A DNA stretch of 64,000 nt, from assembly GCA_964016885.1 (NCBI GenBank), contig OZ024745.1, positions 15,996,001 to 16,060,000 of the forward strand. The letters run 5' to 3'. Made by a program: the position numbers and the translations under genes. The notes beneath the pieces are model-generated. The model saw only the letters and a list, made by a program, of their open reading frames with translations, was not told the origin of the DNA and did not search any database. Shown one piece after another: positions 12,001-52,466 of this stretch. The first letter of the stretch is position 1. Each line of letters starts with the position of its first letter. Source of the DNA: Eledone cirrhosa. Lineage: Eukaryota.

Positions 12001-12947
12001 ATATTCATCCCCTATTTCGTCAATAACACGTAGTATTTCATTATTTGGTTTTTTATTCACCATTGTCATGTTAACACGTTCAACCAGAGAGATATTTATA
12101 CATGAGTTAATTTCTCTCTGGAAGATTTCGTTGGGGGAAATTTTCAATTGTTTATACTTTTGATTATCATTATCGATAGTATTTTCCACGACAGTCGAGG
12201 TAGACTCGGGTGGTATACGTGGTGTCACATTTATTCGATTATTATTATTATTTCTTCGATTATTATTATTATCGATAGTGTTTTCCCCAGCATTCGAGGT
12301 AGACTTAGATGGTACAGGCATAGTTGTTTCAAGGCACTGTTCGACCTGGCTGCTAGGAAGTCTAGTAGCATGGCGATCTGTAGCACGTGTTGTTGATTCC
12401 ATGTTTGTTGTGGGGGACTTACAATTAATAATATTTATCTTATTTTTACGTTCAACAAACGTCGCTTGTTGGCGTAATTGTTTCGCTGTGAAATAATTTA
12501 GCTCTGGGTGCATTTCGTCCTAGTGTAGCTTCATTCTATTCATATAGCCAATGGAGGGATTGTTTTTTGCCATTTTATAACAATTAAATAAATGATTATT
12601 AAGTTCGCAACTCCAAGAGAAATGCGATTTATAATTTCGGTTTCTTCTGTAGCTACAACTGAATAAAGTTTGATTACCTTCTTTGTTATTTGTCTTCGAT
12701 ACTTCCTTAATTTTCTTGTTAATGTTGTGTTCAGCCATGCTGTTTGTAGCAAATCCTTGTAAAATGAATTATGTATTTAGTCGGATATCTCTACGAATTC
12801 GAATAAAAGGTGTCTTCAGAAGGGATAGTTAGAAGAATAACCAGTTATTCAACATGACTGTAGTTGTGGCATTACTGTCGGAGATAGTATTCATCTTAAA
12901 TTTAATAAATAGTCTCCCACGCCAAAATATGCGACTGATCGCGTTGA
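9035..12947 (-). mobile_element. R4/Dong-like RLE non-LTR retrotransposon, copy 1 (5'-truncated, disrupted)
   Basis: RT motifs KNYRPIACQN, WLDYKKAFDSVPH, FFVDDLKLY, YRYLG and GGRGL; CCHC (CRLC..HVISSC), RHD, and RLE motif HNRPDIMIWD..VVEVSCP; (TATG)n on both sides. Confidence 0.92.
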
Positions 12948-16062: not shown

Positions 16063-16103
16063 TTCAAAATATTAGCAAAAATAGACATTCGTGTGATCAA
16101 GTA

Positions 16104-16170
16104 TATTTTATTATACATATTTCAGAGGTACTGAGCTATCTTCAACAGTACGCCCTCATCAGATAAAATA
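16104..16170 (-). ncRNA. Type I hammerhead ribozyme
   Basis: UAUUUUAU-CUGAUGA-GGGCGUACUG..CAGUACCUCU-GAAA-UAUGUAUA^-AUAAAAUA: 8-bp stem I, long stem II, minimal stem III, AUA triplet. Confidence 0.7.
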
Positions 16171-16637
16171 AGATGATGCATGACATACCCTGACATAGTA
16201 GATGGTTAAGATTCAGTCATGGTAGTGAATAAGTTATGACAAGACTCAATATTTATATACCTTACGATTGAGACATGAACAAATTTACATATAATACAGA
16301 GGGTGCGTGTGAGAAAGCTTAAAAATACATAATAGCAATTTATATAACTGTTAGAGATTCAAATAATTTAAATTATTGAAGAAAGAAGGAAAGAAGAAAG
16401 ACAGAGAGAAACAGATGAGGAAAAACTATAGTTACTAGAAGTATAGAAAGCAAAAGACAGTTATGTAAATTGCTATTATGTACTTTTAAGCTTTCTCACA
16501 CGCACCCTCTGTATTATATGTAAGTTTGTTCATGTCTCAATCTTAAGGTATATAAATATTGAGTCTTGTCATATCTTATTCACTACCATGACTGAATCTT
16601 AACCATCTACTATGTCAGGGTATGTCATGCATCATCT

Positions 16638-16704
16638 TATTTTATCTGATGAGAACATACTGTTGAAGATAGCTCAGTACCTCTGAAATATGTATAATAA
16701 AATA
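16638..16704 (+). ncRNA. Type I hammerhead ribozyme (mirror copy)
   Basis: TATTTTAT-CTGATGA...CAGTACCTCT-GAAATATGTATA-ATAAAATA. Confidence 0.65.
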
Positions 16705-16842
16705 TACTTGATCACAAGAATATCTATTTTGTTAATATTTTGAATTAATATTAATAACTCCGGAAAAACATTCCTGTTCAGTGCTTCCAATCTATTGTAA
16801 AACTCCTTCCCTGATTTATTCATTGAACCTTGTTTAACCTTT

Positions 16843-18704: not shown

Positions 18705-19660
18705 TGTTATCTCTTTCTCTTAATTTCGAGTATATTTTTGACTGGCCACCTTCCTGGTGGCAAGGTTGTAAAAGAAAAAAAATGGTCATCCCTTGAATCG
18801 CAAGAATGTTTTGCAAATTTTGAAGGTGCCAGCTATCGCAGCCATTTGTAGACTATGAATTAGGGAGCTGCGCTCTTTGTCCGCAAATCCAAGTTCAGTT
18901 ATACATTGGTCCAAGCGGGTTGGTATATAACCCGAGGCTCCAATAATGATGGGTATGAAGCTAAAGGTGTATCTTGGATACTGGATTTGTAAACTCCTCA
19001 TCAATGGTCCGTAGATGTCCTCCTTCTCCTGTATTTTTCTGACAACGTTTACATCAAGTGGACAGCTGATATCCACAACAGAATACGTTTTCAATGTGTG
19101 GTCCCAAACAACAATATCAGGCCGGTTGAGCTTTATTTTGGAGGCAGTTTTTATTTTCAGGTTCCACCAGTATTCCTTAGTGCCATCTGTCTCAATATAT
19201 TCTTCCTCTTTTGTTTTTAATTTTGTTTTCCGAAGTGCGTTCCAGATGGTTCTAGCTATCCCATCGTGTCTCATGGGGAGGTAGTAGCGAGATGACATTC
19301 TTTCGCAGCTGGCAACAATGTGGCTTACATCTTCGATCTTTGATTTACATAGCCTGCATTTATTGTCAGCTGATGGCTCTCCTCTTTTGTGCAGCAGATA
19401 TTTGGTAGGGAGTTCTTGTTCCTGTATTGCATAGAAATATCCCTCAAGGTGTGATGTCATAAACTTGTCGGAACTCCATGCCAGGCTTTTTGAGTGGTTT
19501 ATCCCCTCTCTGGTCTGTGTTTTACGTCTCAAGTATCCATGTACAACATTTTCTGTAAATTGGTCAATTTTTTCATCTTGTTTGAACATTGAATAGGATC
19601 TTCCGATTTCTCTGGGTGAGAGATTTATATCAGGCTTTATTCCATATCTCTCCTCATCAA
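18705..19660 (-). mobile_element. R4/Dong-like LINE 3' fragment, second subfamily
   Basis: 267-aa ORF with AIQEQ, CRLC..HIVASC, RHD and NRPDIVVWD..VVDISCP; (TATG)n on both sides. Confidence 0.9.
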
Positions 19661-19792
19661 TTTATGTATGTATGTATGTATGTATGTATGTATGTATGTA
19701 TGTATGTATGTATGTATGTATGTATGTATGTATGTATGTATGTATGTATGTACGTACGTACGTATGTATGTACGTACGTATGTACATATGTA

Positions 19793-20820: not shown

Positions 20821-23800
20821 TTCTTCTGGTTTTATAATTTCACAAATTTTTTCCCAATAGAGAGAGAGTCGGTTTCTACCATAGACACAAGACTCTCTCG
20901 CTCCATGCTCTGCCCTCCTTCTCCACTGGCACGCAGCTAGACAACCATAGCCTGCGAATCGGCGTTTCCCTGAGGCTCTGCCTCCGGATCTGCCAGCCAC
21001 ACCAATGTCGCTGCGGTTCCACTGTGGACTCTTTCGGCCTCCACCCGCTTTCCTGTCGCCACAGTGCCGGCCGCATTCCACGCCATAGCGCCCTCAACGA
21101 GGTCATTAAGCATGGCTTGGACACTGCAGGCTTCCCTTCCCAGCTCGAGCCGGTGGGGCTGGATCGAGGGGACGGCAAAAGGCCAGATGGCATGACCATC
21201 TTCCCGTTCCGCGGTGTCAAACCCCTCGTCTGGGATGCCACTTGCACCGACACTTTCTGCAGCCGCAACCTGGTGCAGTCTGCGACTGACCCAGGTTCTG
21301 CTGCACGTCGGGCTGAGGCGCCAAACTCCTCAAATACCGGTCGCTCACCGACAGGTTTGGGGTCTGTCCCCTGGCAGTGGAAACTTCTGGTGTCCTCGGC
21401 CCCAGGGCTACCTCCTTACTCACCACCATAGGCGCTGAGCTGGCCAGCCATAGGTTTGAGCCCCACGAGTTGGAGTGGCTTTTCCAGCACGTCTCCCTTG
21501 CCGTCCTCCAGGGAAACGCCTTCTCCATTCTGTCCGCCGGGGCTGTGGGTGGGCCCCATCGCGTGCCATTACATTAGTTAAATACCATTCTTTCATCTCA
21601 TACATATATACTAGGTAGATATGTATGCATGCATGTGTAGATATGGATGTTATTGTATGTGTGGATGTGTAAGTTTTGATTTGTATGTGTGCATGTGTAC
21701 ATGTGTATATGCAGTTATTAGATGCAACATTTTTGGAATGTTTTACATATTTTTACTGTTCCATTAATGGATTGTACTTGTAATTTCCTAACTAGTTGTG
21801 TTCTTTCTGTTCCTGTGAAGCCTAGCTTCTCAAGATTTGTATTGAGGCAGTTACTAACATACCCCAGTGTCCCAATAATCACAGGCATAAATCTAAAGGT
21901 TTAATCAGGGTGGAGTATCTGCAGATTTCTCATCAGTTCTGCATAAATATTCTCCTTTTCACTAATCTTTGATATTATATTGGCATCTGCTGGGCAGCTA
22001 ACTTCCACTACTGTGCATGCTTTCTTATCCCTGTCCCATATCATAATATCTGGTCTGTTATGCCTGCATTTTATTGGGGTTTTTACTGGAACATTCCACC
22101 AGTACTCTTTCATATTATGTACATGTCTTTCACATTGCTGTAGCTTTTAATGTGTTTATTATCGGGGCTATCTTTTTTACGAACTGCATTGTACAGTGTT
22201 TTGGCCACTACATCATGCCTCATAGGTAGATAGGACCGCGATGACATCTTTGGGCAGCTGCTGATGACATGGGTGATATCCTCGATGTTAGTTCTGCAGA
22301 GTCTGCACTTGTTATCACATCTAGGTGTTTTGCCTGCATCCCTATCTCTTTTGTGAATCAGTTATTTCGTGTTAATCTGTTCTTGGATTGCAAAAGCGTA
22401 TCGTTCAAAGTGGGAGCCAATATAGCGGTTGTTAGTCCAAGATAGACTACTTTCCTTATCCATATTACTCTCATTCTAGAGCTTCCTGGCAACATATCCA
22501 TGCATGATTTTTTGCTGATAAGCATGCAGTTTTCCATGCATGGATTCACTGAGATACTGCTGAGCAACTTTCATGGGTGTAACCTTTTGATTATCACACA
22601 GGGAATATCTCTCGAGTAGTTCCTTCCCAACTCTCATGATCTTATCTGCAGATAAACTTGCTCGAGAGACGGGCTCCTACGCTTCGAGGTTCGTAGATGT
22701 TGACGGAGGGATATGATGCGACATTCAAATGCTGTCTGGACTGATGTTAGGCCTCTGCCCCCCTGCTTACGTTTCAAGAAAAGGCGGTCTATGTCACTGT
22801 TGATGTGGAAGTTTCCGGTGTTGTTCAGTATTTTTCGAGTTCCAACATCAACTGCTCGGATTTCGTCTATCGTCCAATTGAGTATTCCAAACGTTGGTGT
22901 TAGGACAGGCACAGCAAACACATTGTGACCAAATCTTTCTTAAGCGGGTGTATTATTCCCTGGTTACGCGTTCCTTATTACAGATACCATTATAGGATAT
23001 GTTCTCATCTATCCCCAGGTATCTGTAGCAGTCCTCATCAGATATCGGTGAAACAGTTAGGTCATTGATGACAATGTTGCTAGATTGGGTTGTTGTTTTC
23101 CCCCGCTTTACAGTCATGTATGAGCATTTATCTTGTCCAAACTCCATTCCTATATCCTTTAAGAACGTTGTAACCAGGTCAAGATTTTTCTTCATCCCAT
23201 CCATGTTCTTGGCATAGAGTTTCAGATCGTCCACAAAGAAGTTATGGGTTAGGTTCGTATTTCTGTCCTCCTGTGAGCCAATGATGTATCCCTCACATTT
23301 CTCGAGCAGTAAGGACAAGGGGTTTAATGACAAGATGAACAATATCACAGAGAGACTGTCCTCCTGAATTATACCCCTGCAATATTTTATTTTATCAGTG
23401 AAAATAGAGTCCTCCCTCTCTGTCTTTAAATTTAGGATAGTAGCCCAAGAAGAAGACAGCCTCTCTATGGCTCTGACAATAATGTCTGGGACATTAGAAA
23501 GTTGGAGGGCCTCTATCATCCAAGAGTGGGGAACAGAATCGAAAGCTTTCTTGTAGTCCAGCCAGACTGTAGTCATATTCCTCCTAAGTTATCGCACCTC
23601 CGACATCGCAGTTTTGTTGATTAGGAGTTGTTCAGCACATCCTCAAACCCTTTTCTTTCCAGCTGCTTGTTCATCTGTGATGATGTTATTATTTTCACAG
23701 TGATCTTGGAGGAATAGGTTGAGGCAGGCTGCATACATCTTATACATCAGGTTCTGGCATGCAATGGGTCGGTAGTTTTTTGCCAAGTGGGTGTCTTTGT

Positions 23801-26460
23801 TCTTGAGGACCAGTAATATTTGTGTTAATGTCAACCATTCTGGTATAAGTGTATCTCCCTTAAGAACTTGTTGGTAAAGGTCAGTAAGATACCTCCGATA
23901 CAATATCAGTTTTTTGTACCAGTAGCCGACAATCATATCTCTTCCTGGTGGTTTCTTATCTTGGAGTTTTCCTATCACAGTCTCAAGGGTACCCTCACTT
24001 ATTTAGTATATTTTGTTGTAGTGTAGGAGCAATAGTTCTTTCGGATTTCTCTTAGCCACACTGCATCTTGGTTGAAATTCTTCTTTTCACCCCATATTTT
24101 GCTCAAAAAGGAATCTGTCTTTCTAGGTTGGGGCCTCAGTGGCACTTATTATTTTGTTCTTCATATTTCTGTAGACTGATGTTTGGTTTCGTCTGAATCT
24201 TTTATTAAGCACTTTTCTCTCATCTACCTTCTTCAGGTATCGGCGTTTTTCGCTAATAGCTCTCAATTCTTGTTTGAGGGTGATCAACTTATATTGGAAA
24301 GTCCTGGTTCTACTGTTACCAAACATCGTCTCTATTTTATTTTTCACTCTTTGTTGGTGAGGAGTGAGGTTTTTTTGTGTTTGTTTGCCTGTAAGGAGCA
24401 TTGTCACATATCCTATGGTTTTTCGTAGGTCAACAATCTTTTTTTCTAATTTAGTTATATATGATGGTATTTTTGGTGGTGTTCTGTTCTTGTTAATATC
24501 TCTGCTATCACCAAGATAATGCTTCCTGTCGTTGCTAAGGCATATAAACAGGCGTTGATTTGCCAAAATGTTGGGGTTTTTATCCGTCTAAATATTCATC
24601 CCCTATTTCGTCAATAACACGTAATATTTCATTATTTAGTTTTTTTGTTAAACATTGTCGTTTTAATACGTTCAACAAGAGAGATATTTATACATGAATT
24701 AATTTCTCTCTGGAAGATTTCGTTGAGGGAAATTTTCAATTGTTTATACTTTTGATCATTATCATTATCGATAATATTTTCTACAAGAATCGAGGTAGAC
24801 TCGGGTGGTACACATGGTGTCAAATTTCTTCGATTATTATTATTATTATTTCTTCGATTATTATTATTATCGATAGTGTTTTCCCCAGTATTCGAGGTAG
24901 ACTTAGATGGTACAGGTGGTGTCAAGTTTCTTACAGGCATAGTTGTTTCAAGATGCTGTTCGACCTGGCTGCTAGGAAGTCTAGTAGCATGGCGACCTGT
25001 AGCACGTGTTGTTGATTCCATGTTTGTTGTGGGAGACTTACAATTAATACTATTTATCTTATTTTTACGTTCAACAAACGTCGCTTGTTGGCGTAATTGT
25101 TTCGCTGTGAAATAATTTAGCTCTGGGTGCATTTTGTCCCAGTGTAGCTTCATTCTATTCATATAGTCAATGGAGGGATTGTCTTTTGTCATTTTAAAAC
25201 AATTAAATAAATCATTAAGTTCGCAACTCTAAGAGAAATGCGATTTATAATTTCGGTTTCTTCTGTAGCTACAACTGAATAACGTTTGTTTACCTTTCTA
25301 GTTGTTTTTCTTCGATACTTCCTTAATGTTGTTGTTAAGGTTGTGTTCAGCCATCATGTTTGTAACAAATCCTTGTAAAATGAATTATGTATTTAGTCGG
25401 ATATCTATGCGAATTCGAATTAAAGGTGTCTTCAGAAGATATAGTTAGAAGAATAACCAGTTATTCAACATGACTGTAGTTGTGACATTACTGTCGGAGA
25501 TAGTATTCATCTTAAATTTAATAAATAGTCTCCCACGCCAAAATTTGCGACTGATCACTGTATGTATGCTTCCAATGTGTGAAGAGGTGTTTTAGGTGAA
25601 TTGATTTTGAACAACTTCTTTTCCTCCATCTGCGAAGATCTCAATGGCAAAATCCAAGTTTTCGTTTCATGTATCGATAAATGTATAAAGACACATCTTG
25701 TATAATGTGTGGGTATTTGCTGTAAGTCTCCCATAAGGTATGTAGAGGGTTATCTCATACTGCACAGACATAAAAGATGGTAGTTTGTCTGCATATTATA
25801 TTGTACTGATTGTGCAGCAAGCTGTCTGTTGTGATGTCAGCTATTTGTGGGTACGGGTTATGACGATGTAAGATAAATGGTGTTGTAGTTCTCCAATGTT
25901 GGCTGCTGCTGATGTAACTTCACCTTTTGTCACAATATTTCCAATAAATTTTATTGCTTATGTGTTTCATTTTATGAATAAAATAATCAAGATTTTTGAA
26001 GGCATTTGGGAAAATAATTTTATTTTAATTTTATGATGTTTGGAAAATAACTTAATGATATTGATATTCTCTAAGGAGGTTTTTGAGCGGTTTTAATTTA
26101 AATATGAACATTTCAAAACCAAGACAATCCCTGGCAGGCTGGTATAAAGTGGGTTAAGTGAAAGTTTTGTAGTTTATCTCTGTTTTCTGCTGAGTCAGAC
26201 GGGGCTGTCATGCTGTTAAGTTAGTGCAAGTCATGTATATTGTTAACTTGTCATCTGTTATAACATCTGGGGCTGCCGTGATGTAAAATCGGTGAAGGTG
26301 TTGTATGTAGTTCTATCTATCTGCTGAGACAGTTGAGGGTATGATGGTGTGAAGTAAGTGAAGGTGTAGTTCATGTGTTGTCTACTGAGATGGTTGGGAA
26401 GGTTGGTGGGGCTATGTAACGTTTATCTTGTAACTTTTCTTATGTTAAGCTAAGATGTTT
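20821..26460 (-). mobile_element. R4/Dong-like LINE copy 2 (longer 5' region, disrupted, CRE nested in 3' UTR)
   Basis: Near-identical to copy 1 over 21611-25557; retains RGIIQEDSLS; 3' end TTATAAAACCAGAAGAA(CATA)n. The 5' boundary is uncertain. Confidence 0.9.
20899..21605 (+). mobile_element. CRE-like RLE non-LTR retrotransposon, 3' fragment
   Basis: CRCG..HPLSC zinc knuckle, RH..LN, DGKRPDG..PF.G.KPLVWDATC, VETSGVLGP, QGNA. Confidence 0.85.
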
Positions 26461-29255: not shown

Positions 29256-29304
<49 letters not shown>

Positions 29305-29308
<4 letters not shown>

Positions 29309-32300
29309 AAATAACGAAACGAAATTAAATTTCGTTTCGTTTGTAACTCACTTTTGTATGACTGACGCTTAAACAATTAAGTTAAAGATGTACATCCATA
29401 TATGTATACTGAAATACTAGTATGTATATGAATACACACACGTATACATATGTAGATGTACCAAGTTTTTTCACTGGTCACTTTACTGTGAGTGGCCAGC
29501 TATTCTGTATGTAAACACACAGACAAACCGGTTTTTAGAGTCATACTGGTTTTTGAGGAAACACCTTTCCTCTATTCTCCAGAAAGCCAGACAAGGAATA
29601 TTGAACTAGTTTCGTTGTTGTTACAACTCATCAGCAATATTTACCTATCTTCCGGCCTCTCTAGAGAATCGTAAATGCACATATCGTTATATGCTTTTTC
29701 TATGAAAATTAGTAGTGGGCAGACTAATTTGCATAGAGTGTGAGTAAGTACCGGTTCAACGGAGACGATAAAAACAAATAACGAAACGAAATTAAATTTC
29801 GTTTCGTTTGTAACTCACTTTTGTATGACTGACGCTTAAACAATTAAGTTAAAGATGTACATCCATATATGTATACTGAAATACTAGTATGTATATGAAT
29901 ACACACACGTATACATATGTAGATGTACCAAGTTTTTTCACTGGTCACTTTACTGTGAGTGGCCAGCTATTCTGTATGTAAACACACAGACAAACCGGTT
30001 TTTAGAGTCATACTGGTTTTTGAGGAAACACCTTTCCTCTATTCTCCAGAAAGCCAGACAAGGAATATTGAACTAGTTTCGTTGTTGTTACAACTCATCA
30101 GCAATATTTACCTATCTTCCGGCCTCTCTAGAGAATCGTAAATGCACATATCGTTATATGCTTTTTCTATGAAAATTAGTAGTGGGCAGACTAATTTGCA
30201 TAGAGTGTGAGTAAGTACCGGTTCAACGGAGACGATAAAAACAAATAACGAAACGAAATTAAATTTCGTTTCGTTTGTAACTCACTTTTGTATGACTGAC
30301 GCTTAAACAATTAAGTTAAAGATGTACATCCATATATGTATACTGAAATACTAGTATGTATATGAATACACACACGTATACATATGTAGATGTACCAAGT
30401 TTTTTCACTGGTCACTTTACTGTGAGTGGCCAGCTATTCTGTATGTAAACACACAGACAAACCGGTTTTTAGAGTCATACTGGTTTTTGAGGAAACACCT
30501 TTCCTCTATTCTCCAGAAAGCCAGACAAGGAATATTGAACTAGTTTCGTTGTTGTTACAACTCATCAGCAATATTTACCTATCTTCCGGCCTCTCTAGAG
30601 AATCGTAAATGCACATATCGTTATATGCTTTTTCTATGAAAATTAGTAGTGGGCAGACTAATTTGCATAGAGTGTGAGTAAGTACCGGTTCAACGGAGAC
30701 GATAAAAACAAATAACGAAACGAAATTAAATTTCGTTTCGTTTGTAACTCACTTTTGTATGACTGACGCTTAAACAATTAAGTTAAAGATGTACATCCAT
30801 ATATGTATACTGAAATACTAGTATGTATATGAATACACACACGTATACATATGTAGATGTACCAAGTTTTTTCACTGGTCACTTTACTGTGAGTGGCCAG
30901 CTATTCTGTATGTAAACACACAGACAAACCGGTTTTTAGAGTCATACTGGTTTTTGAGGAAACACCTTTCCTCTATTCTCCAGAAAGCCAGACAAGGAAT
31001 ATTGAACTAGTTTCGTTGTTGTTACAACTCATCAGCAATATTTACCTATCTTCCGGCCTCTCTAGAGAATCGTAAATGCACATATCGTTATATGCTTTTT
31101 CTATGAAAATTAGTAGTGGGCAGACTAATTTGCATAGAGTGTGAGTAAGTACCGGTTCAACGGAGACGATAAAAACAAATAACGAAACGAAATTAAATTT
31201 CGTTTCGTTTGTAACTCACTTTTGTATGACTGACGCTTAAACAATTAAGTTAAAGATGTACATCCATATATGTATACTGAAATACTAGTATGTATATGAA
31301 TACACACACGTATACATATGTAGATGTACCAAGTTTTTTCACTGGTCACTTTACTGTGAGTGGCCAGCTATTCTGTATGTAAACACACAGACAAACCGGT
31401 TTTTAGAGTCATACTGGTTTTTGAGGAAACACCTTTCCTCTATTCTCCAGAAAGCCAGACAAGGAATATTGAACTAGTTTCGTTGTTGTTACAACTCATC
31501 AGCAATATTTACCTATCTTCCGGCCTCTCTAGAGAATCGTAAATGCACATATCGTTATATGCTTTTTCTATGAAAATTAGTAGTGGGCAGACTAATTTGC
31601 ATAGAGTGTGAGTAAGTACCGGTTCAACGGAGACGATAAAAACAAATAACGAAACGAAATTAAATTTCGTTTCGTTTGTAACTCACTTTTGTATGACTGA
31701 CGCTTAAACAATTAAGTTAAAGATGTACATCCATATATGTATACTGAAATACTAGTATGTATATGAATACACACACGTATACATATGTAGATGTACCAAG
31801 TTTTTTCACTGGTCACTTTACTGTGAGTGGCCAGCTATTCTGTATGTAAACACACAGACAAACCGGTTTTTAGAGTCATACTGGTTTTTGAGGAAACACC
31901 TTTCCTCTATTCTCCAGAAAGCCAGACAAGGAATATTGAACTAGTTTCGTTGTTGTTACAACTCATCAGCAATATTTACCTATCTTCCGGCCTCTCTAGA
32001 GAATCGTAAATGCACATATCGTTATATGCTTTTTCTATGAAAATTAGTAGTGGGCAGACTAATTTGCATAGAGTGTGAGTAAGTACCGGTTCAACGGAGA
32101 CGATAAAAACAAATAACGAAACGAAATTAAATTTCGTTTCGTTTGTAACTCACTTTTGTATGACTGACGCTTAAACAATTAAGTTAAAGATGTACATCCA
32201 TATATGTATACTGAAATACTAGTATGTATATGAATACACACACGTATACATATGTAGATGTACCAAGTTTTTTCACTGGTCACTTTACTGTGAGTGGCCA

Positions 32301-35300
32301 GCTATTCTGTATGTAAACACACAGACAAACCGGTTTTTAGAGTCATACTGGTTTTTGAGGAAACACCTTTCCTCTATTCTCCAGAAAGCCAGACAAGGAA
32401 TATTGAACTAGTTTCGTTGTTGTTACAACTCATCAGCAATATTTACCTATCTTCCGGCCTCTCTAGAGAATCGTAAATGCACATATCGTTATATGCTTTT
32501 TCTATGAAAATTAGTAGTGGGCAGACTAATTTGCATAGAGTGTGAGTAAGTACCGGTTCAACGGAGACGATAAAAACAAATAACGAAACGAAATTAAATT
32601 TCGTTTCGTTTGTAACTCACTTTTGTATGACTGACGCTTAAACAATTAAGTTAAAGATGTACATCCATATATGTATACTGAAATACTAGTATGTATATGA
32701 ATACACACACGTATACATATGTAGATGTACCAAGTTTTTTCACTGGTCACTTTACTGTGAGTGGCCAGCTATTCTGTATGTAAACACACAGACAAACCGG
32801 TTTTTAGAGTCATACTGGTTTTTGAGGAAACACCTTTCCTCTATTCTCCAGAAAGCCAGACAAGGAATATTGAACTAGTTTCGTTGTTGTTACAACTCAT
32901 CAGCAATATTTACCTATCTTCCGGCCTCTCTAGAGAATCGTAAATGCACATATCGTTATATGCTTTTTCTATGAAAATTAGTAGTGGGCAGACTAATTTG
33001 CATAGAGTGTGAGTAAGTACCGGTTCAACGGAGACGATAAAAACAAATAACGAAACGAAATTAAATTTCGTTTCGTTTGTAACTCACTTTTGTATGACTG
33101 ACGCTTAAACAATTAAGTTAAAGATGTACATCCATATATGTATACTGAAATACTAGTATGTATATGAATACACACACGTATACATATGTAGATGTACCAA
33201 GTTTTTTCACTGGTCACTTTACTGTGAGTGGCCAGCTATTCTGTATGTAAACACACAGACAAACCGGTTTTTAGAGTCATACTGGTTTTTGAGGAAACAC
33301 CTTTCCTCTATTCTCCAGAAAGCCAGACAAGGAATATTGAACTAGTTTCGTTGTTGTTACAACTCATCAGCAATATTTACCTATCTTCCGGCCTCTCTAG
33401 AGAATCGTAAATGCACATATCGTTATATGCTTTTTCTATGAAAATTAGTAGTGGGCAGACTAATTTGCATAGAGTGTGAGTAAGTACCGGTTCAACGGAG
33501 ACGATAAAAACAAATAACGAAACGAAATTAAATTTCGTTTCGTTTGTAACTCACTTTTGTATGACTGACGCTTAAACAATTAAGTTAAAGATGTACATCC
33601 ATATATGTATACTGAAATACTAGTATGTATATGAATACACACACGTATACATATGTAGATGTACCAAGTTTTTTCACTGGTCACTTTACTGTGAGTGGCC
33701 AGCTATTCTGTATGTAAACACACAGACAAACCGGTTTTTAGAGTCATACTGGTTTTTGAGGAAACACCTTTCCTCTATTCTCCAGAAAGCCAGACAAGGA
33801 ATATTGAACTAGTTTCGTTGTTGTTACAACTCATCAGCAATATTTACCTATCTTCCGGCCTCTCTAGAGAATCGTAAATGCACATATCGTTATATGCTTT
33901 TTCTATGAAAATTAGTAGTGGGCAGACTAATTTGCATAGAGTGTGAGTAAGTACCGGTTCAACGGAGACGATAAAAACAAATAACGAAACGAAATTAAAT
34001 TTCGTTTCGTTTGTAACTCACTTTTGTATGACTGACGCTTAAACAATTAAGTTAAAGATGTACATCCATATATGTATACTGAAATACTAGTATGTATATG
34101 AATACACACACGTATACATATGTAGATGTACCAAGTTTTTTCACTGGTCACTTTACTGTGAGTGGCCAGCTATTCTGTATGTAAACACACAGACAAACCG
34201 GTTTTTAGAGTCATACTGGTTTTTGAGGAAACACCTTTCCTCTATTCTCCAGAAAGCCAGACAAGGAATATTGAACTAGTTTCGTTGTTGTTACAACTCA
34301 TCAGCAATATTTACCTATCTTCCGGCCTCTCTAGAGAATCGTAAATGCACATATCGTTATATGCTTTTTCTATGAAAATTAGTAGTGGGCAGACTAATTT
34401 GCATAGAGTGTGAGTAAGTACCGGTTCAACGGAGACGATAAAAACAAATAACGAAACGAAATTAAATTTCGTTTCGTTTGTAACTCACTTTTGTATGACT
34501 GACGCTTAAACAATTAAGTTAAAGATGTACATCCATATATGTATACTGAAATACTAGTATGTATATGAATACACACACGTATACATATGTAGATGTACCA
34601 AGTTTTTTCACTGGTCACTTTACTGTGAGTGGCCAGCTATTCTGTATGTAAACACACAGACAAACCGGTTTTTAGAGTCATACTGGTTTTTGAGGAAACA
34701 CCTTTCCTCTATTCTCCAGAAAGCCAGACAAGGAATATTGAACTAGTTTCGTTGTTGTTACAACTCATCAGCAATATTTACCTATCTTCCGGCCTCTCTA
34801 GAGAATCGTAAATGCACATATCGTTATATGCTTTTTCTATGAAAATTAGTAGTGGGCAGACTAATTTGCATAGAGTGTGAGTAAGTACCGGTTCAACGGA
34901 GACGATAAAAACAAATAACGAAACGAAATTAAATTTCGTTTCGTTTGTAACTCACTTTTGTATGACTGACGCTTAAACAATTAAGTTAAAGATGTACATC
35001 CATATATGTATACTGAAATACTAGTATGTATATGAATACACACACGTATACATATGTAGATGTACCAAGTTTTTTCACTGGTCACTTTACTGTGAGTGGC
35101 CAGCTATTCTGTATGTAAACACACAGACAAACCGGTTTTTAGAGTCATACTGGTTTTTGAGGAAACACCTTTCCTCTATTCTCCAGAAAGCCAGACAAGG
35201 AATATTGAACTAGTTTCGTTGTTGTTACAACTCATCAGCAATATTTACCTATCTTCCGGCCTCTCTAGAGAATCGTAAATGCACATATCGTTATATGCTT

Positions 35301-37798
35301 TTTCTATGAAAATTAGTAGTGGGCAGACTAATTTGCATAGAGTGTGAGTAAGTACCGGTTCAACGGAGACGATAAAAACAAATAACGAAACGAAATTAAA
35401 TTTCGTTTCGTTTGTAACTCACTTTTGTATGACTGACGCTTAAACAATTAAGTTAAAGATGTACATCCATATATGTATACTGAAATACTAGTATGTATAT
35501 GAATACACACACGTATACATATGTAGATGTACCAAGTTTTTTCACTGGTCACTTTACTGTGAGTGGCCAGCTATTCTGTATGTAAACACACAGACAAACC
35601 GGTTTTTAGAGTCATACTGGTTTTTGAGGAAACACCTTTCCTCTATTCTCCAGAAAGCCAGACAAGGAATATTGAACTAGTTTCGTTGTTGTTACAACTC
35701 ATCAGCAATATTTACCTATCTTCCGGCCTCTCTAGAGAATCGTAAATGCACATATCGTTATATGCTTTTTCTATGAAAATTAGTAGTGGGCAGACTAATT
35801 TGCATAGAGTGTGAGTAAGTACCGGTTCAACGGAGACGATAAAAACAAATAACGAAACGAAATTAAATTTCGTTTCGTTTGTAACTCACTTTTGTATGAC
35901 TGACGCTTAAACAATTAAGTTAAAGATGTACATCCATATATGTATACTGAAATACTAGTATGTATATGAATACACACACGTATACATATGTAGATGTACC
36001 AAGTTTTTTCACTGGTCACTTTACTGTGAGTGGCCAGCTATTCTGTATGTAAACACACAGACAAACCGGTTTTTAGAGTCATACTGGTTTTTGAGGAAAC
36101 ACCTTTCCTCTATTCTCCAGAAAGCCAGACAAGGAATATTGAACTAGTTTCGTTGTTGTTACAACTCATCAGCAATATTTACCTATCTTCCGGCCTCTCT
36201 AGAGAATCGTAAATGCACATATCGTTATATGCTTTTTCTATGAAAATTAGTAGTGGGCAGACTAATTTGCATAGAGTGTGAGTAAGTACCGGTTCAACGG
36301 AGACGATAAAAACAAATAACGAAACGAAATTAAATTTCGTTTCGTTTGTAACTCACTTTTGTATGACTGACGCTTAAACAATTAAGTTAAAGATGTACAT
36401 CCATATATGTATACTGAAATACTAGTATGTATATGAATACACACACGTATACATATGTAGATGTACCAAGTTTTTTCACTGGTCACTTTACTGTGAGTGG
36501 CCAGCTATTCTGTATGTAAACACACAGACAAACCGGTTTTTAGAGTCATACTGGTTTTTGAGGAAACACCTTTCCTCTATTCTCCAGAAAGCCAGACAAG
36601 GAATATTGAACTAGTTTCGTTGTTGTTACAACTCATCAGCAATATTTACCTATCTTCCGGCCTCTCTAGAGAATCGTAAATGCACATATCGTTATATGCT
36701 TTTTCTATGAAAATTAGTAGTGGGCAGACTAATTTGCATAGAGTGTGAGTAAGTACCGGTTCAACGGAGACGATAAAAACAAATAACGAAACGAAATTAA
36801 ATTTCGTTTCGTTTGTAACTCACTTTTGTATGACTGACGCTTAAACAATTAAGTTAAAGATGTACATCCATATATGTATACTGAAATACTAGTATGTATA
36901 TGAATACACACACGTATACATATGTAGATGTACCAAGTTTTTTCACTGGTCACTTTACTGTGAGTGGCCAGCTATTCTGTATGTAAACACACAGACAAAC
37001 CGGTTTTTAGAGTCATACTGGTTTTTGAGGAAACACCTTTCCTCTATTCTCCAGAAAGCCAGACAAGGAATATTGAACTAGTTTCGTTGTTGTTACAACT
37101 CATCAGCAATATTTACCTATCTTCCGGCCTCTCTAGAGAATCGTAAATGCACATATCGTTATATGCTTTTTCTATGAAAATTAGTAGTGGGCAGACTAAT
37201 TTGCATAGAGTGTGAGTAAGTACCGGTTCAACGGAGACGATAAAAACAAATAACGAAACGAAATTAAATTTCGTTTCGTTTGTAACTCACTTTTGTATGA
37301 CTGACGCTTAAACAATTAAGTTAAAGATGTACATCCATATATGTATACTGAAATACTAGTATGTATATGAATACACACACGTATACATATGTAGATGTAC
37401 CAAGTTTTTTCACTGGTCACTTTACTGTGAGTGGCCAGCTATTCTGTATGTAAACACACAGACAAACCGGTTTTTAGAGTCATACTGGTTTTTGAGGAAA
37501 CACCTTTCCTCTATTCTCCAGAAAGCCAGACAAGGAATATTGAACTAGTTTCGTTGTTGTTACAACTCATCAGCAATATTTACCTATCTTCCGGCCTCTC
37601 TAGAGAATCGTAAATGCACATATCGTTATATGCTTTTTCTATGAAAATTAGTAGTGGGCAGACTAATTTGCATAGAGTGTGAGTAAGTACCGGTTCAACG
37701 GAGACGATAAAAACAAATAACGAAACGAAATTAAATTTCGTTTCGTTTGTAACTCACTTTTGTATGACTGACGCTTAAACAATTAAGTTAAAGATGTA
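29305..37798 (-). repeat. 467-bp tandem array, 18 full units plus a partial unit; retrozyme-like, HHR sense on the minus strand
   Basis: Exact 467-bp period in the ORF track (29492, 29959 ... 37431); no differences seen between units; begins right after (TA)n. Confidence 0.97.
29597..29641 (-). ncRNA. Minimal type I hammerhead ribozyme; repeats every 467 bp up to 37536-37580 (18 copies)
   Basis: AAUAUUG-CUGAUGA-GUUG(UAACAA)CAAC-GAAA-C(UA)G-UU^-CAAUAUU: 7-bp stem I, 4-bp stem II, palindromic stem III (AACUAGUU), GUU triplet. Confidence 0.88.
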
Positions 37799-40167
37799 TT
37801 TCAGTATACATATATGGATGTACATCTTTAACTTAATTGTTTAAGCGTCAGTCATACAAAAGTGAGTTACAAACGAAACGAAATTTAATTTCGTTTCGTT
37901 ATTTGTTTTTATCGTCTCCGTTGAACCGGTACTTACTCACACTCTATGCAAATTAGTCTGCCCACTACTAATTTTCATAGAAAAAGCATATAACGATATG
38001 TGCATTTACGATTCTCTAGAGAGGCCGGAAGATAGGTAAATATTGCTGATGAGTTGTAACAACAACGAAACTAGTTCAATATTCCTTGTCTGGCTTTCTG
38101 GAGAATAGAGGAAAGGTGTTTCCTCAAAAACCAGTATGACTCTAAAAACCGGTTTGTCTGTGTGTTTACATACAGAATAGCTGGCCACTCACAGTAAAGT
38201 GACCAGTGAAAAAACTTGGTACATCTACATATGTATACGTGTGTGTATTCATATACATACTAGTATTTCAGTATACATATATGGATGTACATCTTTAACT
38301 TAATTGTTTAAGCGTCAGTCATACAAAAGTGAGTTACAAACGAAACGAAATTTAATTTCGTTTCGTTATTTGTTTTTATCGTCTCCGTTGAACCGGTACT
38401 TACTCACACTCTATGCAAATTAGTCTGCCCACTACTAATTTTCATAGAAAAAGCATATAACGATATGTGCATTTACGATTCTCTAGAGAGGCCGGAAGAT
38501 AGGTAAATATTGCTGATGAGTTGTAACAACAACGAAACTAGTTCAATATTCCTTGTCTGGCTTTCTGGAGAATAGAGGAAAGGTGTTTCCTCAAAAACCA
38601 GTATGACTCTAAAAACCGGTTTGTCTGTGTGTTTACATACAGAATAGCTGGCCACTCACAGTAAAGTGACCAGTGAAAAAACTTGGTACATCTACATATG
38701 TATACGTGTGTGTATTCATATACATACTAGTATTTCAGTATACATATATGGATGTACATCTTTAACTTAATTGTTTAAGCGTCAGTCATACAAAAGTGAG
38801 TTACAAACGAAACGAAATTTAATTTCGTTTCGTTATTTGTTTTTATCGTCTCCGTTGAACCGGTACTTACTCACACTCTATGCAAATTAGTCTGCCCACT
38901 ACTAATTTTCATAGAAAAAGCATATAACGATATGTGCATTTACGATTCTCTAGAGAGGCCGGAAGATAGGTAAATATTGCTGATGAGTTGTAACAACAAC
39001 GAAACTAGTTCAATATTCCTTGTCTGGCTTTCTGGAGAATAGAGGAAAGGTGTTTCCTCAAAAACCAGTATGACTCTAAAAACCGGTTTGTCTGTGTGTT
39101 TACATACAGAATAGCTGGCCACTCACAGTAAAGTGACCAGTGAAAAAACTTGGTACATCTACATATGTATACGTGTGTGTATTCATATACATACTAGTAT
39201 TTCAGTATACATATATGGATGTACATCTTTAACTTAATTGTTTAAGCGTCAGTCATACAAAAGTGAGTTACAAACGAAACGAAATTTAATTTCGTTTCGT
39301 TATTTGTTTTTATCGTCTCCGTTGAACCGGTACTTACTCACACTCTATGCAAATTAGTCTGCCCACTACTAATTTTCATAGAAAAAGCATATAACGATAT
39401 GTGCATTTACGATTCTCTAGAGAGGCCGGAAGATAGGTAAATATTGCTGATGAGTTGTAACAACAACGAAACTAGTTCAATATTCCTTGTCTGGCTTTCT
39501 GGAGAATAGAGGAAAGGTGTTTCCTCAAAAACCAGTATGACTCTAAAAACCGGTTTGTCTGTGTGTTTACATACAGAATAGCTGGCCACTCACAGTAAAG
39601 TGACCAGTGAAAAAACTTGGTACATCTACATATGTATACGTGTGTGTATTCATATACATACTAGTATTTCAGTATACATATATGGATGTACATCTTTAAC
39701 TTAATTGTTTAAGCGTCAGTCATACAAAAGTGAGTTACAAACGAAACGAAATTTAATTTCGTTTCGTTATTTGTTTTTATCGTCTCCGTTGAACCGGTAC
39801 TTACTCACACTCTATGCAAATTAGTCTGCCCACTACTAATTTTCATAGAAAAAGCATATAACGATATGTGCATTTACGATTCTCTAGAGAGGCCGGAAGA
39901 TAGGTAAATATTGCTGATGAGTTGTAACAACAACGAAACTAGTTCAATATTCCTTGTCTGGCTTTCTGGAGAATAGAGGAAAGGTGTTTCCTCAAAAACC
40001 AGTATGACTCTAAAAACCGGTTTGTCTGTGTGTTTACATACAGAATAGCTGGCCACTCACAGTAAAGTGACCAGTGAAAAAACTTGGTACATCTACATAT
40101 GTATACGTGTGTGTATTCATATACATACTAGTATTTCAGTATACATATATGGATGTACATCTTTAAC

Positions 40168-40173
<6 letters not shown>
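37796..40173 (+). repeat. Inverted arm of the 467-bp array (5 units plus 43 bp)
   Basis: Reverse complement of the same unit; ends at (TA)n. Confidence 0.97.
38039..38083 (+). ncRNA. Minimal type I hammerhead ribozyme; repeats every 467 bp up to 39907-39951 (5 copies)
   Basis: AATATTG CTGATGA GTTG TAACAA CAAC GAAAC TA GTT CAATATT read directly on the plus strand. Confidence 0.88.
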
Positions 40174-40215
<42 letters not shown>

Positions 40216-50229: not shown

Positions 50230-50468
50230 TATGATAAATGGAATAGAATGAAACGAAATTTCATTTCTCACTCTTAGTACGGCACTTACTTAAATGTAAG
50301 TATGTATGTATACGTACATACATATATGTATACAGACGTACAGTAGCATGTATATATATACATACAGGCACACATATATATATGCACGTATCAGTTTACC
50401 GAACATTTATTATAATGCTCGGTTTGTTCGTTTGTAAACCATCTGTCAACCATCTGGCAGAAAGGTAT

Positions 50469-50511
50469 ACGGTGCTGACGATAGCTAATAAGCTTGAAAC
50501 TAGTACATCGT
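50469..50511 (+). ncRNA. Minimal type I hammerhead ribozyme
   Basis: ACGGUG-CUGACGA-UAGCU(AAUA)AGCUU-GAAAC(UA)GUA^-CAUCGU; enclosed by an inverted repeat TATAATGCTCGGTTTGTTCGTTTGTAAAC / GTTTACAAACGAACAAACCGAGCATTATA. Confidence 0.8.
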
Positions 50512-50569
50512 TCCTGTGTCAGTGTTGAACAAAAAGGTGACGTGGTTGCCTAAACACTGTACGGCGTAA

Positions 50570-51292
50570 TTCAGGCTGTTTGTTTGTTTACAAACGAACA
50601 AACCGAGCATTATACTAAATACTAAATCTCTTCCTTCCAACATTGAATTTCATAATAACAGTAATAGTACTCCCGACGTCATTGTAAACCCTAGGCTAAC
50701 TTCTGTAAACCCAAATACAACGTCAAACACAACTTCGCTAAATGTTCATAATCCAACTCTAAATCAAGAAACTATTATTCCTATTATTCCTATCGCAAAC
50801 AACTTCTCCAATCCAATTCCTTCTATAGATAACACTAGGTCACTCATTAATAATCTCTCTAATTGCAACTGCCGCATTAAAAATAAATGTCCTCTCAACA
50901 ACCATTGTCTTGATAAAAACTTAATTTATGAATGTAAAGTTATAACTAGCACCAATTCCTTCACCTATTTTGGCTCCACTTCCACCTCTTTTAAAGCTCG
51001 TCTCTATAATCATCATTCATCTTTTAAATACAAACTTAAAAGAACCAACACGGCTCTCTCAGAACTCATATGGTCCTTGAAAGACAAAAACATTAAATAT
51101 ACCATCTTTTGGAAGAAGGTTTCTTCTGCATCCTCATACTTGAACAGCTCTCTATCTAAAATCTGTAATCTCTGCCTAAATGAAAAATTTACCATTATCT
51201 CTAATCTAGATTCTATAATAAATAGACGTACAGATTTGTTTTCTATCTGCTTGCATAAATTCCATAGGACTTTTCACAAAGTATACAGCTAA
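50570..51292 (+). CDS. Penelope-like element C-terminus: GIY-YIG endonuclease (5'-truncated, no start codon)
   Basis: Stop-free frame of about 240 codons: N/T/P-rich linker, then CNCRIKNKCPLNNHCLDKNLIYECKV..TYFGSTSTSFKARLYNHHSSF..TALSELIWSLK..ICNLCLNEK..INRR..CLH. Confidence 0.85.
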   Translation, partial: FRLFVCLQTNKPSIILNTKSLPSNIEFHNNSNSTPDVIVNPRLTSVNPNTTSNTTSLNVHNPTLNQETIIPIIPIANNFSNPIPSIDNTRSLINNLSNCNCRIKNKCPLNNHCLDKNLIYECKVITSTNSFTYFGSTSTSFKARLYNHHSSFKYKLKRTNTALSELIWSLKDKNIKYTIFWKKVSSASSYLNSSLSKICNLCLNEKFTIISNLDSIINRRTDLFSICLHKFHRTFHKVYS

Positions 51293-51459
51293 TATTCAAT
51301 TCTTTATCAATTTAGAATCTTTTTCTCAAAGGCACATATACATACACCTCTTTAAAATATACCCATCTTCCTACCTTACTTCAAAGGGCATTATACACTC
51401 TATAATACTTGTTTACTCATTACCCTCATTCTATCTTCACCTTGTAAAATCCTTCATAA

Positions 51460-52000
51460 CATATACATTTGTTTTTTTGACGTTAGAATATTCATCCGCA
51501 ATTATTATTATTTTTTCTCTCCATCATCAAACTTTTTAATCTCAATACATTAACTCCCTCTCCTTCTTTTGACGCTAGTATATTCATCCTTAATTTATTA
51601 TTTTTTCTTCCCATCAACTAACTCATTCTTAATACATATTAACTCTTTCTTCGCACATATTATCAATTCCTTCAATATACAAACCTTAACTTCACATTAT
51701 TTTTCTCAAATCATCTAATACACAAACCTTAATAATTTTTTAATACATATTAACTCTTTCTTCGCACATATTATCAATTCCTTCAATATACAAACCTTAA
51801 CTTCACATTATTTTTCTCAAATCCTTCAACACACAAACCTTAATAATTTTTTTCTCTTCGTTAATTTTGAAATTGCCATAATACTTATAAACATACACCT
51901 TTTTGACGTTAGAATATTCATCCGCAATTATTATTTTTTCTCTCTATCTTCAAACTTTTTAATCTCAATACATATCAACTCCCTCTCTTTCCTCGTACAT
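51460..52000. repeat. Pyrimidine-rich region with internal direct duplications (probable PLE 3' UTR)
   Basis: Tandem duplication of about 110 bp at 51630-51850; TTTTGACGTTAGAATATTCATCC recurs. Confidence 0.65.
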
Positions 52001-52405
52001 ATTTTTCCCTTCGTTAATTTTCAAATTCTTTTAATTTATACATTATCTTCCAACGGTTTTCAACCTCTCTATGTAAAACAATATATCTTCTCTCAGTTAT
52101 AAAAACTATCTCTTTCTCTCTATCACCCATTTCTCCCTCTCCACCTTCAATCTCATCTCCTCCCCTTTTTTCATCCTTTCCACCCCCCCCCTCTCTAAAT
52201 AAAATATTTTTCCCAATATCACACATCAATCTAAAACTACTTTTCATATGTTGATTTAAAACTGCACTATCCACAAGTGTTTTTTAGCCTTCATATCATG
52301 TCCTCCTGTTTTATCTGATGAAAACACAAATATTATTGCATGATGATGTTTGTTTTTGAAATGCGCATAATAAAATACATGGAACTCCTTTAACCATCTT
52401 TTGAT

Positions 52406-52466
<61 letters not shown>

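What the first reader, a model, noticed from the sequence alone, without database searches (positions are those of the whole stretch)
37711..37900. Fold-back junction makes the array an asymmetric giant palindrome
Seen: the direct arm stops at ..AAAGATGTA and continues as TTTCAGTATACATATATGGATG-TACATCTTT, a hairpin with a 22-nt loop and a 3-nt microhomology (GTA, 37796-37798). About 2.4 kb on each side is self-complementary, and the HHR sense points away from the centre in both arms. Inference: this fits snap-back priming or template switching during integration, like the inverted 5' pseudo-LTRs known for PLEs. Transcription across the locus from either side would yield both HHR-sense RNA and long dsRNA, a possible siRNA or A-to-I editing substrate.
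Basis: partly seen in the sequence, partly recalled or inferred. Interest (0 to 1): 0.7.

Follow-up and report, generated by a model that had tools for sequence, protein, structure and literature searches.

The report
Two-armed Penelope-type insertion of hammerhead repeat
The giant palindrome is the normal back-to-back layout of a high-copy 467-base repeat with a hammerhead-ribozyme motif, and it likely forms when a Penelope-type transposon enzyme copies one RNA from both cut ends of a TA repeat and joins the two copies, rather than by a hairpin fold-back peculiar to this site.

Summary
The junction is as described: 18.2 identical 467-bp units face 5.1 units head to head, with a 2,353-bp perfect stem, a 22-nt loop and a shared GTA. 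It is not special to this site. The unit is a non-coding type I hammerhead repeat with at least 2,114 insertion ends in TA microsatellites. Of 100 copies picked by their long end (unit base 117), 69 have an inverted arm ending at bases 42-49, and 8 more have a very short one. The junction point varies and short microhomology is enriched. One tailed plus one tail-less end is the known Penelope-like-element (PLE) footprint; an apparently active PLE in this genome shows it too. In 6 of 67 copies, and in 3 PLE copies, neither arm contains the other, so fold-back cannot be the general route. True fold-backs are about 10%. Here, the 22-nt hairpin would need the 2.4-kb arm to template the 8.5-kb arm, and such offsets occur at chance rate. 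Best reading: twin-primed reverse transcription of one, probably circular, RNA, closed by microhomology. No read bridging this junction was seen, no RNA data were available, and the driver PLE is unidentified.

The parts
29256..29305 (.). (TA)n target microsatellite, left
29301..37798 (-). Long arm: 18.2 identical 467-bp units, hammerhead sense on the - strand; outer end at unit base 117 (tailed end)
   Evidence: the same end occurs with TA at 2,114 exact places in the genome
29301..29374 (-). Terminal tail (unit bases 44-117, 74 nt) present at this end only; contains a 29-nt hairpin
37796..37798 (.). 3-nt microhomology GTA joining the two arms (left arm stops at unit base 26, right arm starts at base 1)
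   Evidence: single copy in the assembly
37799..37820 (.). 22-nt unpaired centre of the palindrome
37796..38262 (+). Reference unit U (467 bp, no stop-free frame over 62 codons)
37872..37900 (+). 29-nt hairpin inside the tail segment, between the two fixed end points
38039..38083 (+). Type I hammerhead motif: 7-bp stem I, 5-bp stem II, palindromic CTAG helix III; predicted cut after 38076 (GUU here, GUC in older subfamilies); one per unit
   Evidence: compensatory change in stem II; Rfam gives no match at gathering score
37796..40173 (+). Short arm: 5.1 units, sense on +; outer end at unit base 43 (tail-less end)
   Evidence: this end occurs with TA at 677 exact places
40173..40212 (.). (TA)n target microsatellite, right

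Best explanation
The palindrome is one insertion of a non-coding 467-bp hammerhead repeat into a TA microsatellite, with two back-to-back arms that were likely each primed from one end of the cut target by a Penelope-type enzyme copying one, probably circular, RNA. Shown: the arms, their two fixed outer ends (unit bases 117 and 43), the TA flanks, the GTA overlap, and the same layout across the family and in this genome's autonomous PLEs. Inferred: a PLE endonuclease cuts both strands; one reverse transcriptase starts at base 117 and one at base 43-48, on either side of the tail hairpin; each runs a variable distance, over many units on a circular or multimeric template; and the two cDNA 3' ends anneal by a few bases and are filled in. 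On this reading the 22-nt loop is a by-product of two stop points 25 nt apart on a 467-nt cycle.
For: Family rule: among the first 100 listed of 2,114 tailed ends, 69 have an inverted arm ending at bases 42-49, 8 have a very short one, and none has two tailed ends. Junction phase is broadly spread: 57 of 73 offsets exceed 30 nt. Neither arm can be the general template: 19 of 67 inverted arms hold sequence missing from the tailed arm, 27 of 67 show the reverse, and 6 show both; in 4 copies the tailed arm (42-70 nt) spans little or nothing beyond the tail itself. Microhomology of 3 nt or more occurs at 14 of 41 clean junctions against 6.6% expected, p=2e-7. One template source per locus: no fixed difference between arms in 15 of 15 testable loci, and private variants in both arms in 16 of 55. 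Several young arrays are identical or star-like. An apparently active 821-codon PLE has the same tailed and tail-less pairing in TA; only 1 of 10 two-armed copies is a fold-back, and in L253, L255 and L269 neither arm contains the other. In vitro, a lizard PLE cuts and extends both strands, starts at two sites flanking the tail, and is predicted to be a dimer (PMC11167929).
Against: For this locus alone the short arm is wholly contained in the long arm, so self-priming of the long strand at a distant repeat cannot be excluded. Equal-length fold-backs are enriched (7 of 66 against 2.5), and three autonomous PLE copies are near-perfect palindromes (L207, L214, L260), so snap-back or run-off from a shared RNA end also happens. 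Two copies have tail-less ends on both sides (L273; L282 with extra internal inversions), and 15 of 100 show no inverted arm. Arrays can grow or be homogenised later (one single-orientation array of at least 46 kb; shared variants in L148, L272, L278 and L283-287), which weakens arguments from arm length and identity. No PLE with a pLTR similar to U was found among 50 GIY-YIG loci or in the active family. No contig bridging this junction was listed.
Confidence: 0.66

Rival explanations
1. Snap-back: the tail-less cDNA folds over the 22-nt loop, pairs TAC with GTA and copies itself; the copied arm later grows to 18 units.
For: The junction fits a 3-bp, 22-nt hairpin. Equal-length fold-backs are enriched in the family and occur in PLE copies L207, L214 and L260. 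Self-priming was proposed for PLE head-to-head junctions (PMC3846280). Very long arrays exist.
Against: It needs 13 extra units added afterwards, and a copy strand that ends exactly at the tailed site. Small offsets with unequal arms are at chance level, 8 of 49 against 6.4. In 4 of the 7 equal-length cases the tailed strand overshoots, the opposite of the sign here; 2 have the window's sign and 1 is zero.
Confidence: 0.12
2. Long-range self-priming: only the tailed end is target-primed; after 8.5 kb its 3' GTA pairs with a TAC 13 units back and copies 2.4 kb, which is then cut or stopped at base 43 and joined to the target.
For: The geometry of this locus allows it. In 48 of 67 copies the inverted arm is contained in the tailed arm. 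The two arms are identical.
Against: It fails for the 19 of 67 copies whose inverted arm holds sequence absent from the tailed arm, and for PLE copies L253, L255 and L269. It needs a separate reason for a fixed stop at bases 42-49, where published in vitro work finds a second start site instead.
Confidence: 0.12
3. A later inversion or recombination inside an older direct array.
For: Some junctions lie at natural palindromes of the unit (L051, L056, L111, L137, L140), and L282 has extra internal inversions.
Against: The units here are identical, so the copy is young. The two outer ends are the two family-typical ends, which one direct array would not carry in this polarity. The polarity is head to head in nearly all copies seen.
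Confidence: 0.05
4. An assembly artefact from a fold-back read.
For: The junction is single copy, the units are identical, and no bridging contig was listed in four public runs (223 pieces were not shown, and the runs may come from other individuals).
Against: A fold-back read mirrors whatever it has read, but here the two ends differ (bases 117 and 43) and have different flanks. Such junctions occur in at least 77 of 100 sampled copies, at different points. Other head-to-head joints of the family appear in public contigs (joint 37782 to 38095; loose ends behind 37784, matched to the sense unit by eye). The unit count in each arm could still be off.
Confidence: 0.05

Closest known systems
Inverted pseudo-LTR plus one-sided tail of EN+ Penelope-like elements (PMC8557442 passages, PMC3846280 passages, PMC11167929 parts 1-2 of 4)
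   Same: Inverted 5'-truncated copy head to head with the direct copy; a tail at one end only; AT-rich or (TA)n target; two end points that match the reported two RT start sites.
   Different: No ORF. The tail is 69-74 nt against the reported 30-40 nt. Both arms are multi-unit tandem arrays. No PLE with a matching pLTR was found.
Animal non-LTR retrozymes (Cervera and de la Pena 2020, PMC7229834 passages; Li et al. bioRxiv 10.64898/2026.07.22.740005 part 1 and passages)
   Same: Tandem non-coding units of low GC, each with one type I hammerhead with a short palindromic helix III; thousands of dispersed loci.
   Different: The unit is 467 bp against 150-450 bp. The word 'inverted' does not occur in the main text of the first paper and occurs only in a reference title in the second, so the two-armed layout is not described there. 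Cleavage and circular RNA were not tested here.
L1 twin priming and dual priming (PMC2837659 passages)
   Same: Both target ends prime cDNA, the cDNAs meet at an internal junction, and the result is head to head.
   Different: In L1 the second priming site is variable and the fragments do not overlap. Here both start sites are fixed, the arms overlap in sequence, and most copies are two-armed.

Membership tests
Animal non-LTR retrozyme | Tandem repeats with a type I hammerhead in every unit | tested here: met
   23 of 23 core motifs in the window; compensatory change in stem II across subfamilies; Rfam gathering score not reached
Animal non-LTR retrozyme | No protein coding, GC below 45-50% | tested here: met
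   longest stop-free frame 62 codons; GC 0.35
Animal non-LTR retrozyme | Unit of about 150-450 bp | tested here: inconclusive
   467 bp, just above the published range
Animal non-LTR retrozyme | Dispersed, mobile, many loci | tested here: met
   2,114 and 677 exact ends, 8,539 exact unit 18-mers
Animal non-LTR retrozyme | Self-cleavage and circular RNA in vivo | not testable with these tools
   no RNA holder listed
PLE-type insertion footprint | Inverted 5'-truncated copy, head to head | tested here: met
   83 of 100 copies have an inverted arm, counting 8 very short ones
PLE-type insertion footprint | Tail at one end only | tested here: met
   69+8 of 100 picked by the tailed end; 21 of 28 distinct loci picked by the tail-less end have a tailed partner, 1 has two tail-less ends, 5 have no inverted arm, 1 is unresolved; the two samples overlap. 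The tail is 69-74 nt, longer than published.
PLE-type insertion footprint | AT-rich or microsatellite target | tested here: met
   TA on both sides here and at the unselected far end of most copies; the near end was selected for TA
Autonomous PLE | RT plus GIY-YIG ORF | tested here: not met
   no ORF in the unit
Non-autonomous derivative of a named PLE | Sequence shared with the pLTR of an autonomous PLE | tested here: inconclusive
   none found in 50 loci taken from 150 listed of 10,596 GIY-YIG candidates, nor in 50 loci of the active family

The most novel reading that the evidence does not exclude
Penelope-type enzymes insert by obligatory twin priming: a dimer holds one RNA, and its two reverse transcriptases start on either side of the tail hairpin, one from each cut DNA end. 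On a small ribozyme-made RNA circle both run rolling-circle, so one event writes kilobases of perfect palindrome. Thousands of such loci would record each enzyme's run length and would settle how PLE inverted arms and one-sided tails arise.
Probability: 0.5. Interest if true: 0.68.

Novelty: new member of a known kind. Interest (0 to 1): 0.42.

Why it matters
How PLEs make their inverted arms and one-sided tail is described as unresolved (PMC8557442, PMC11167929), and the explanation I found in print is self-priming (PMC3846280). This short, young, high-copy passenger gives enough junctions to separate the models: most need two primings, and about one in ten looks like fold-back. It also ties tandem retrozymes to PLE enzymes through the insertion footprint, and it implies well over a thousand perfect inverted repeats that could form long dsRNA. 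The single junction flagged is ordinary within its family, and earlier notes of this scan reached a similar reading for sister families.

Tried and rejected
Rfam scan: no match, so the hammerhead was read from its core motif. Search for a junction shared between loci: the exact junction is unique, so it is not a fixed part of the element. Junctions at the ribozyme cut site (base 281): breakpoints are spread over the unit. Public runs: no RNA holder listed; one raw-read run laid nothing; no bridging contig among those shown for X1, X2, X3 and X5, which proves nothing. X1-X3 are one sample of unrecorded library type and may be the assembly's source. Joints 37791 and 37793 to 38219 were discarded as products of the unit's own hairpin. 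Driver search: matches of U near PLE ORFs (L196, L212, L213) belong to a sister repeat at least 1 kb from the ORF ends; a 14-nt match to the L205 UTR was reached by 17 of 300 shuffles and was rejected. Distance between arms against nearest other locus was uninformative (0.6% against 0.7%). Rows dropped: 14 of 73 junctions unresolved for exact microhomology; L106 (duplicate of L105) left out (arm-length part), 45 and 71 but counted; L136 and L171 left out of junction geometry. Literature searches listed no paper applying twin priming to PLEs: the four PLE papers have zero occurrences of the phrase. Subscription journals and supplements were not seen.

Full report
Observation. A 467-bp unit is repeated 18.2 times at 29301-37798 and 5.1 times in the opposite orientation at 37796-40173. 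All units are identical except one base at the far left end. The perfect stem is 2,353 bp, the loop 22 nt, and GTA at 37796-37798 fits both arms. Each unit has a type I hammerhead core pointing away from the centre. Rfam does not reach its cut-off, but older subfamilies show a compensatory change in stem II and GUC instead of GUU at the predicted cut. Both outer ends lie in (TA)n.

The family. I number the unit from 37796. The left end falls at base 117 and the right end at base 43. Exact searches give 2,114 places with the base-117 end plus TA, 677 with the base-43 end plus TA and 8,539 copies of a unit 18-mer. The exact junction occurs once. I examined the first 100 listed base-117 ends, all on contig C1: 69 have an inverted arm ending at bases 42-49 (mostly 48 or 43), 8 have a very short such arm (one doubtful), 4 have another outer end, 2 run beyond the stretch fetched, 15 show no inverted arm and 2 are open. 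None has two base-117 ends. Of 28 distinct loci picked by the base-43 end (overlapping the first set), 21 have the base-117 end opposite, 1 has two short ends, 5 are one-armed and 1 is unresolved. Of 10 loci picked by similarity alone, 8 are head to head. The palindrome is therefore the usual insertion product, with a 69-74-nt tail on one side only.

Which mechanism. Breakpoints are spread over the unit, and 57 of 73 have a phase offset above 30 nt. The tail-less arm is the longer one in 28 of 67 copies. It holds sequence missing from the tailed arm in 19, the reverse holds in 27, and both hold in 6. L038, for example, has arms of 58 and 65 nt that do not overlap at all. No single snap-back rule covers these cases. 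Microhomology of 3 nt or more is found at 14 of 41 clean junctions against 6.6% expected; 18 of 59 resolved junctions have inserted bases. The two arms show no fixed difference in 15 testable loci and share private variants in 16 of 55, which points to one template source per insertion, although later conversion between arms could add to this. Several multi-unit arrays are identical or carry only singleton changes, as expected from one copying event; others share variants, so tandem templates or later growth also occur.

Evidence for some fold-back. Seven of 66 copies have arms of equal length within 25 nt after removing the tail, against 2.5 by permutation (p about 0.01). The window is not one of them: its arms differ by 13 units. 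Among 49 unequal copies, 8 have an offset of 30 nt or less against 6.4 expected. The 22-nt hairpin would also make the short strand the template of the long one.

The genome's own PLEs. GIY-YIG search gives 10,596 candidates, and two frames tested carry RT and GIY-YIG matches. Copy L214 is a near-perfect fold-back with one tailed and one tail-less end. A fragment in this window (50570-51292, +; no Pfam match itself) belongs to a family with over 50 listed copies identical over the 144 residues searched and an 821-codon frame. Its copies end in TA at a short end or about 90 nt further on, one of each in two-armed copies where both ends were read. Junction offsets in 10 two-armed copies run from 3 to 1,426 nt, only one is a fold-back, and in L253, L255 and L269 neither arm contains the other. 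No PLE shares clear sequence with U, so the driver is inferred from the footprint only.

Is the junction real. No contig listed in four public runs bridges it. The list was cut and the samples may lack this young insertion. Those runs do show the two fixed ends and other head-to-head joints of the family. A fold-back read artefact would not give two different family-typical ends with different flanks. I put an artefact at about 5%.

Comparison with print. Inverted 5'-truncated copies and a one-sided 30-40-bp tail are standard for PLEs, and their origin is called undefined (PMC8557442, passages). Self-priming was proposed from palindromic junctions (PMC3846280, passages). A purified PLE cuts and extends both strands, starts at two sites that bound the tail, and is predicted to dimerise (PMC11167929, parts 1-2 of 4). 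Retrozymes are described as tandem hammerhead repeats expressed as circles (PMC7229834, passages) and as PLE derivatives (bioRxiv 10.64898/2026.07.22.740005, part 1 and passages); neither text describes inverted arms. Twin and dual priming are defined for L1 (PMC2837659, passages). Palindromic helix III and dimeric cleavage come from PMC4209133 (passages). Passages of bioRxiv 10.1101/2024.12.14.628481 concern L1 and did not change the reading. Supplements were not read. Earlier notes of this scan give the same reading for sister families; they are not independent evidence.

Verdict. Real sequence feature; a new member of a known kind (retrozyme with a PLE footprint). Twin priming with microhomology closure is the most likely origin (0.66). 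Interest 0.42: the single junction is ordinary, while the family statistics bear on an open question in PLE biology.

Noticed in passing
window 50233-52410: One TA-flanked block joins a tailed inverted arm and a hammerhead-bearing plus segment of a sister repeat (67-78% like U) directly to a 5'-truncated copy of the young PLE family with a tail-less end. It may be a retrozyme-PLE chimera made in one insertion, which would point to this PLE as the driver; a nested insertion with deletion is the alternative.
   Followed up: partly
window 16078-16730: Another head-to-head pair with hammerhead-like motifs (16162 on -, 16646 on +), TA on the left side.
   Followed up: no
window 15509 (-) and 15657 (+): A small inverted pair of hammerhead-like motifs of a further family.
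   Followed up: no
L283-L287 (G000:C1:95640000-95685900): An older subfamily (88% like U) forms an uninterrupted single-orientation array of at least 46 kb, about 100 units, with variants shared among units.
   Followed up: partly
L262 (G000:C5:28062500-28071000): Intact-looking PLE: 821-codon frame, pLTR with a hammerhead-like motif, tail of about 90 nt; many identical copies suggest current activity.
   Followed up: partly
L207, L214, L260: Autonomous PLE copies that are near-perfect 3-4-kb fold-back palindromes.
   Followed up: partly
L273 and L282: Exceptions to the one-of-each rule: tail-less ends on both sides; L282 has two extra internal inversions at the tail hairpin.
   Followed up: partly
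L155, junction: A zero-offset junction holds a 65-nt GC-rich insert of unknown origin.
   Followed up: no
window 9346-12519, 18786-19661, 22953-25228: Broken non-LTR retrotransposon frames (RT-like and endonuclease-like; labels from my recall of the motifs, not from a call) on the - strand.
   Followed up: no
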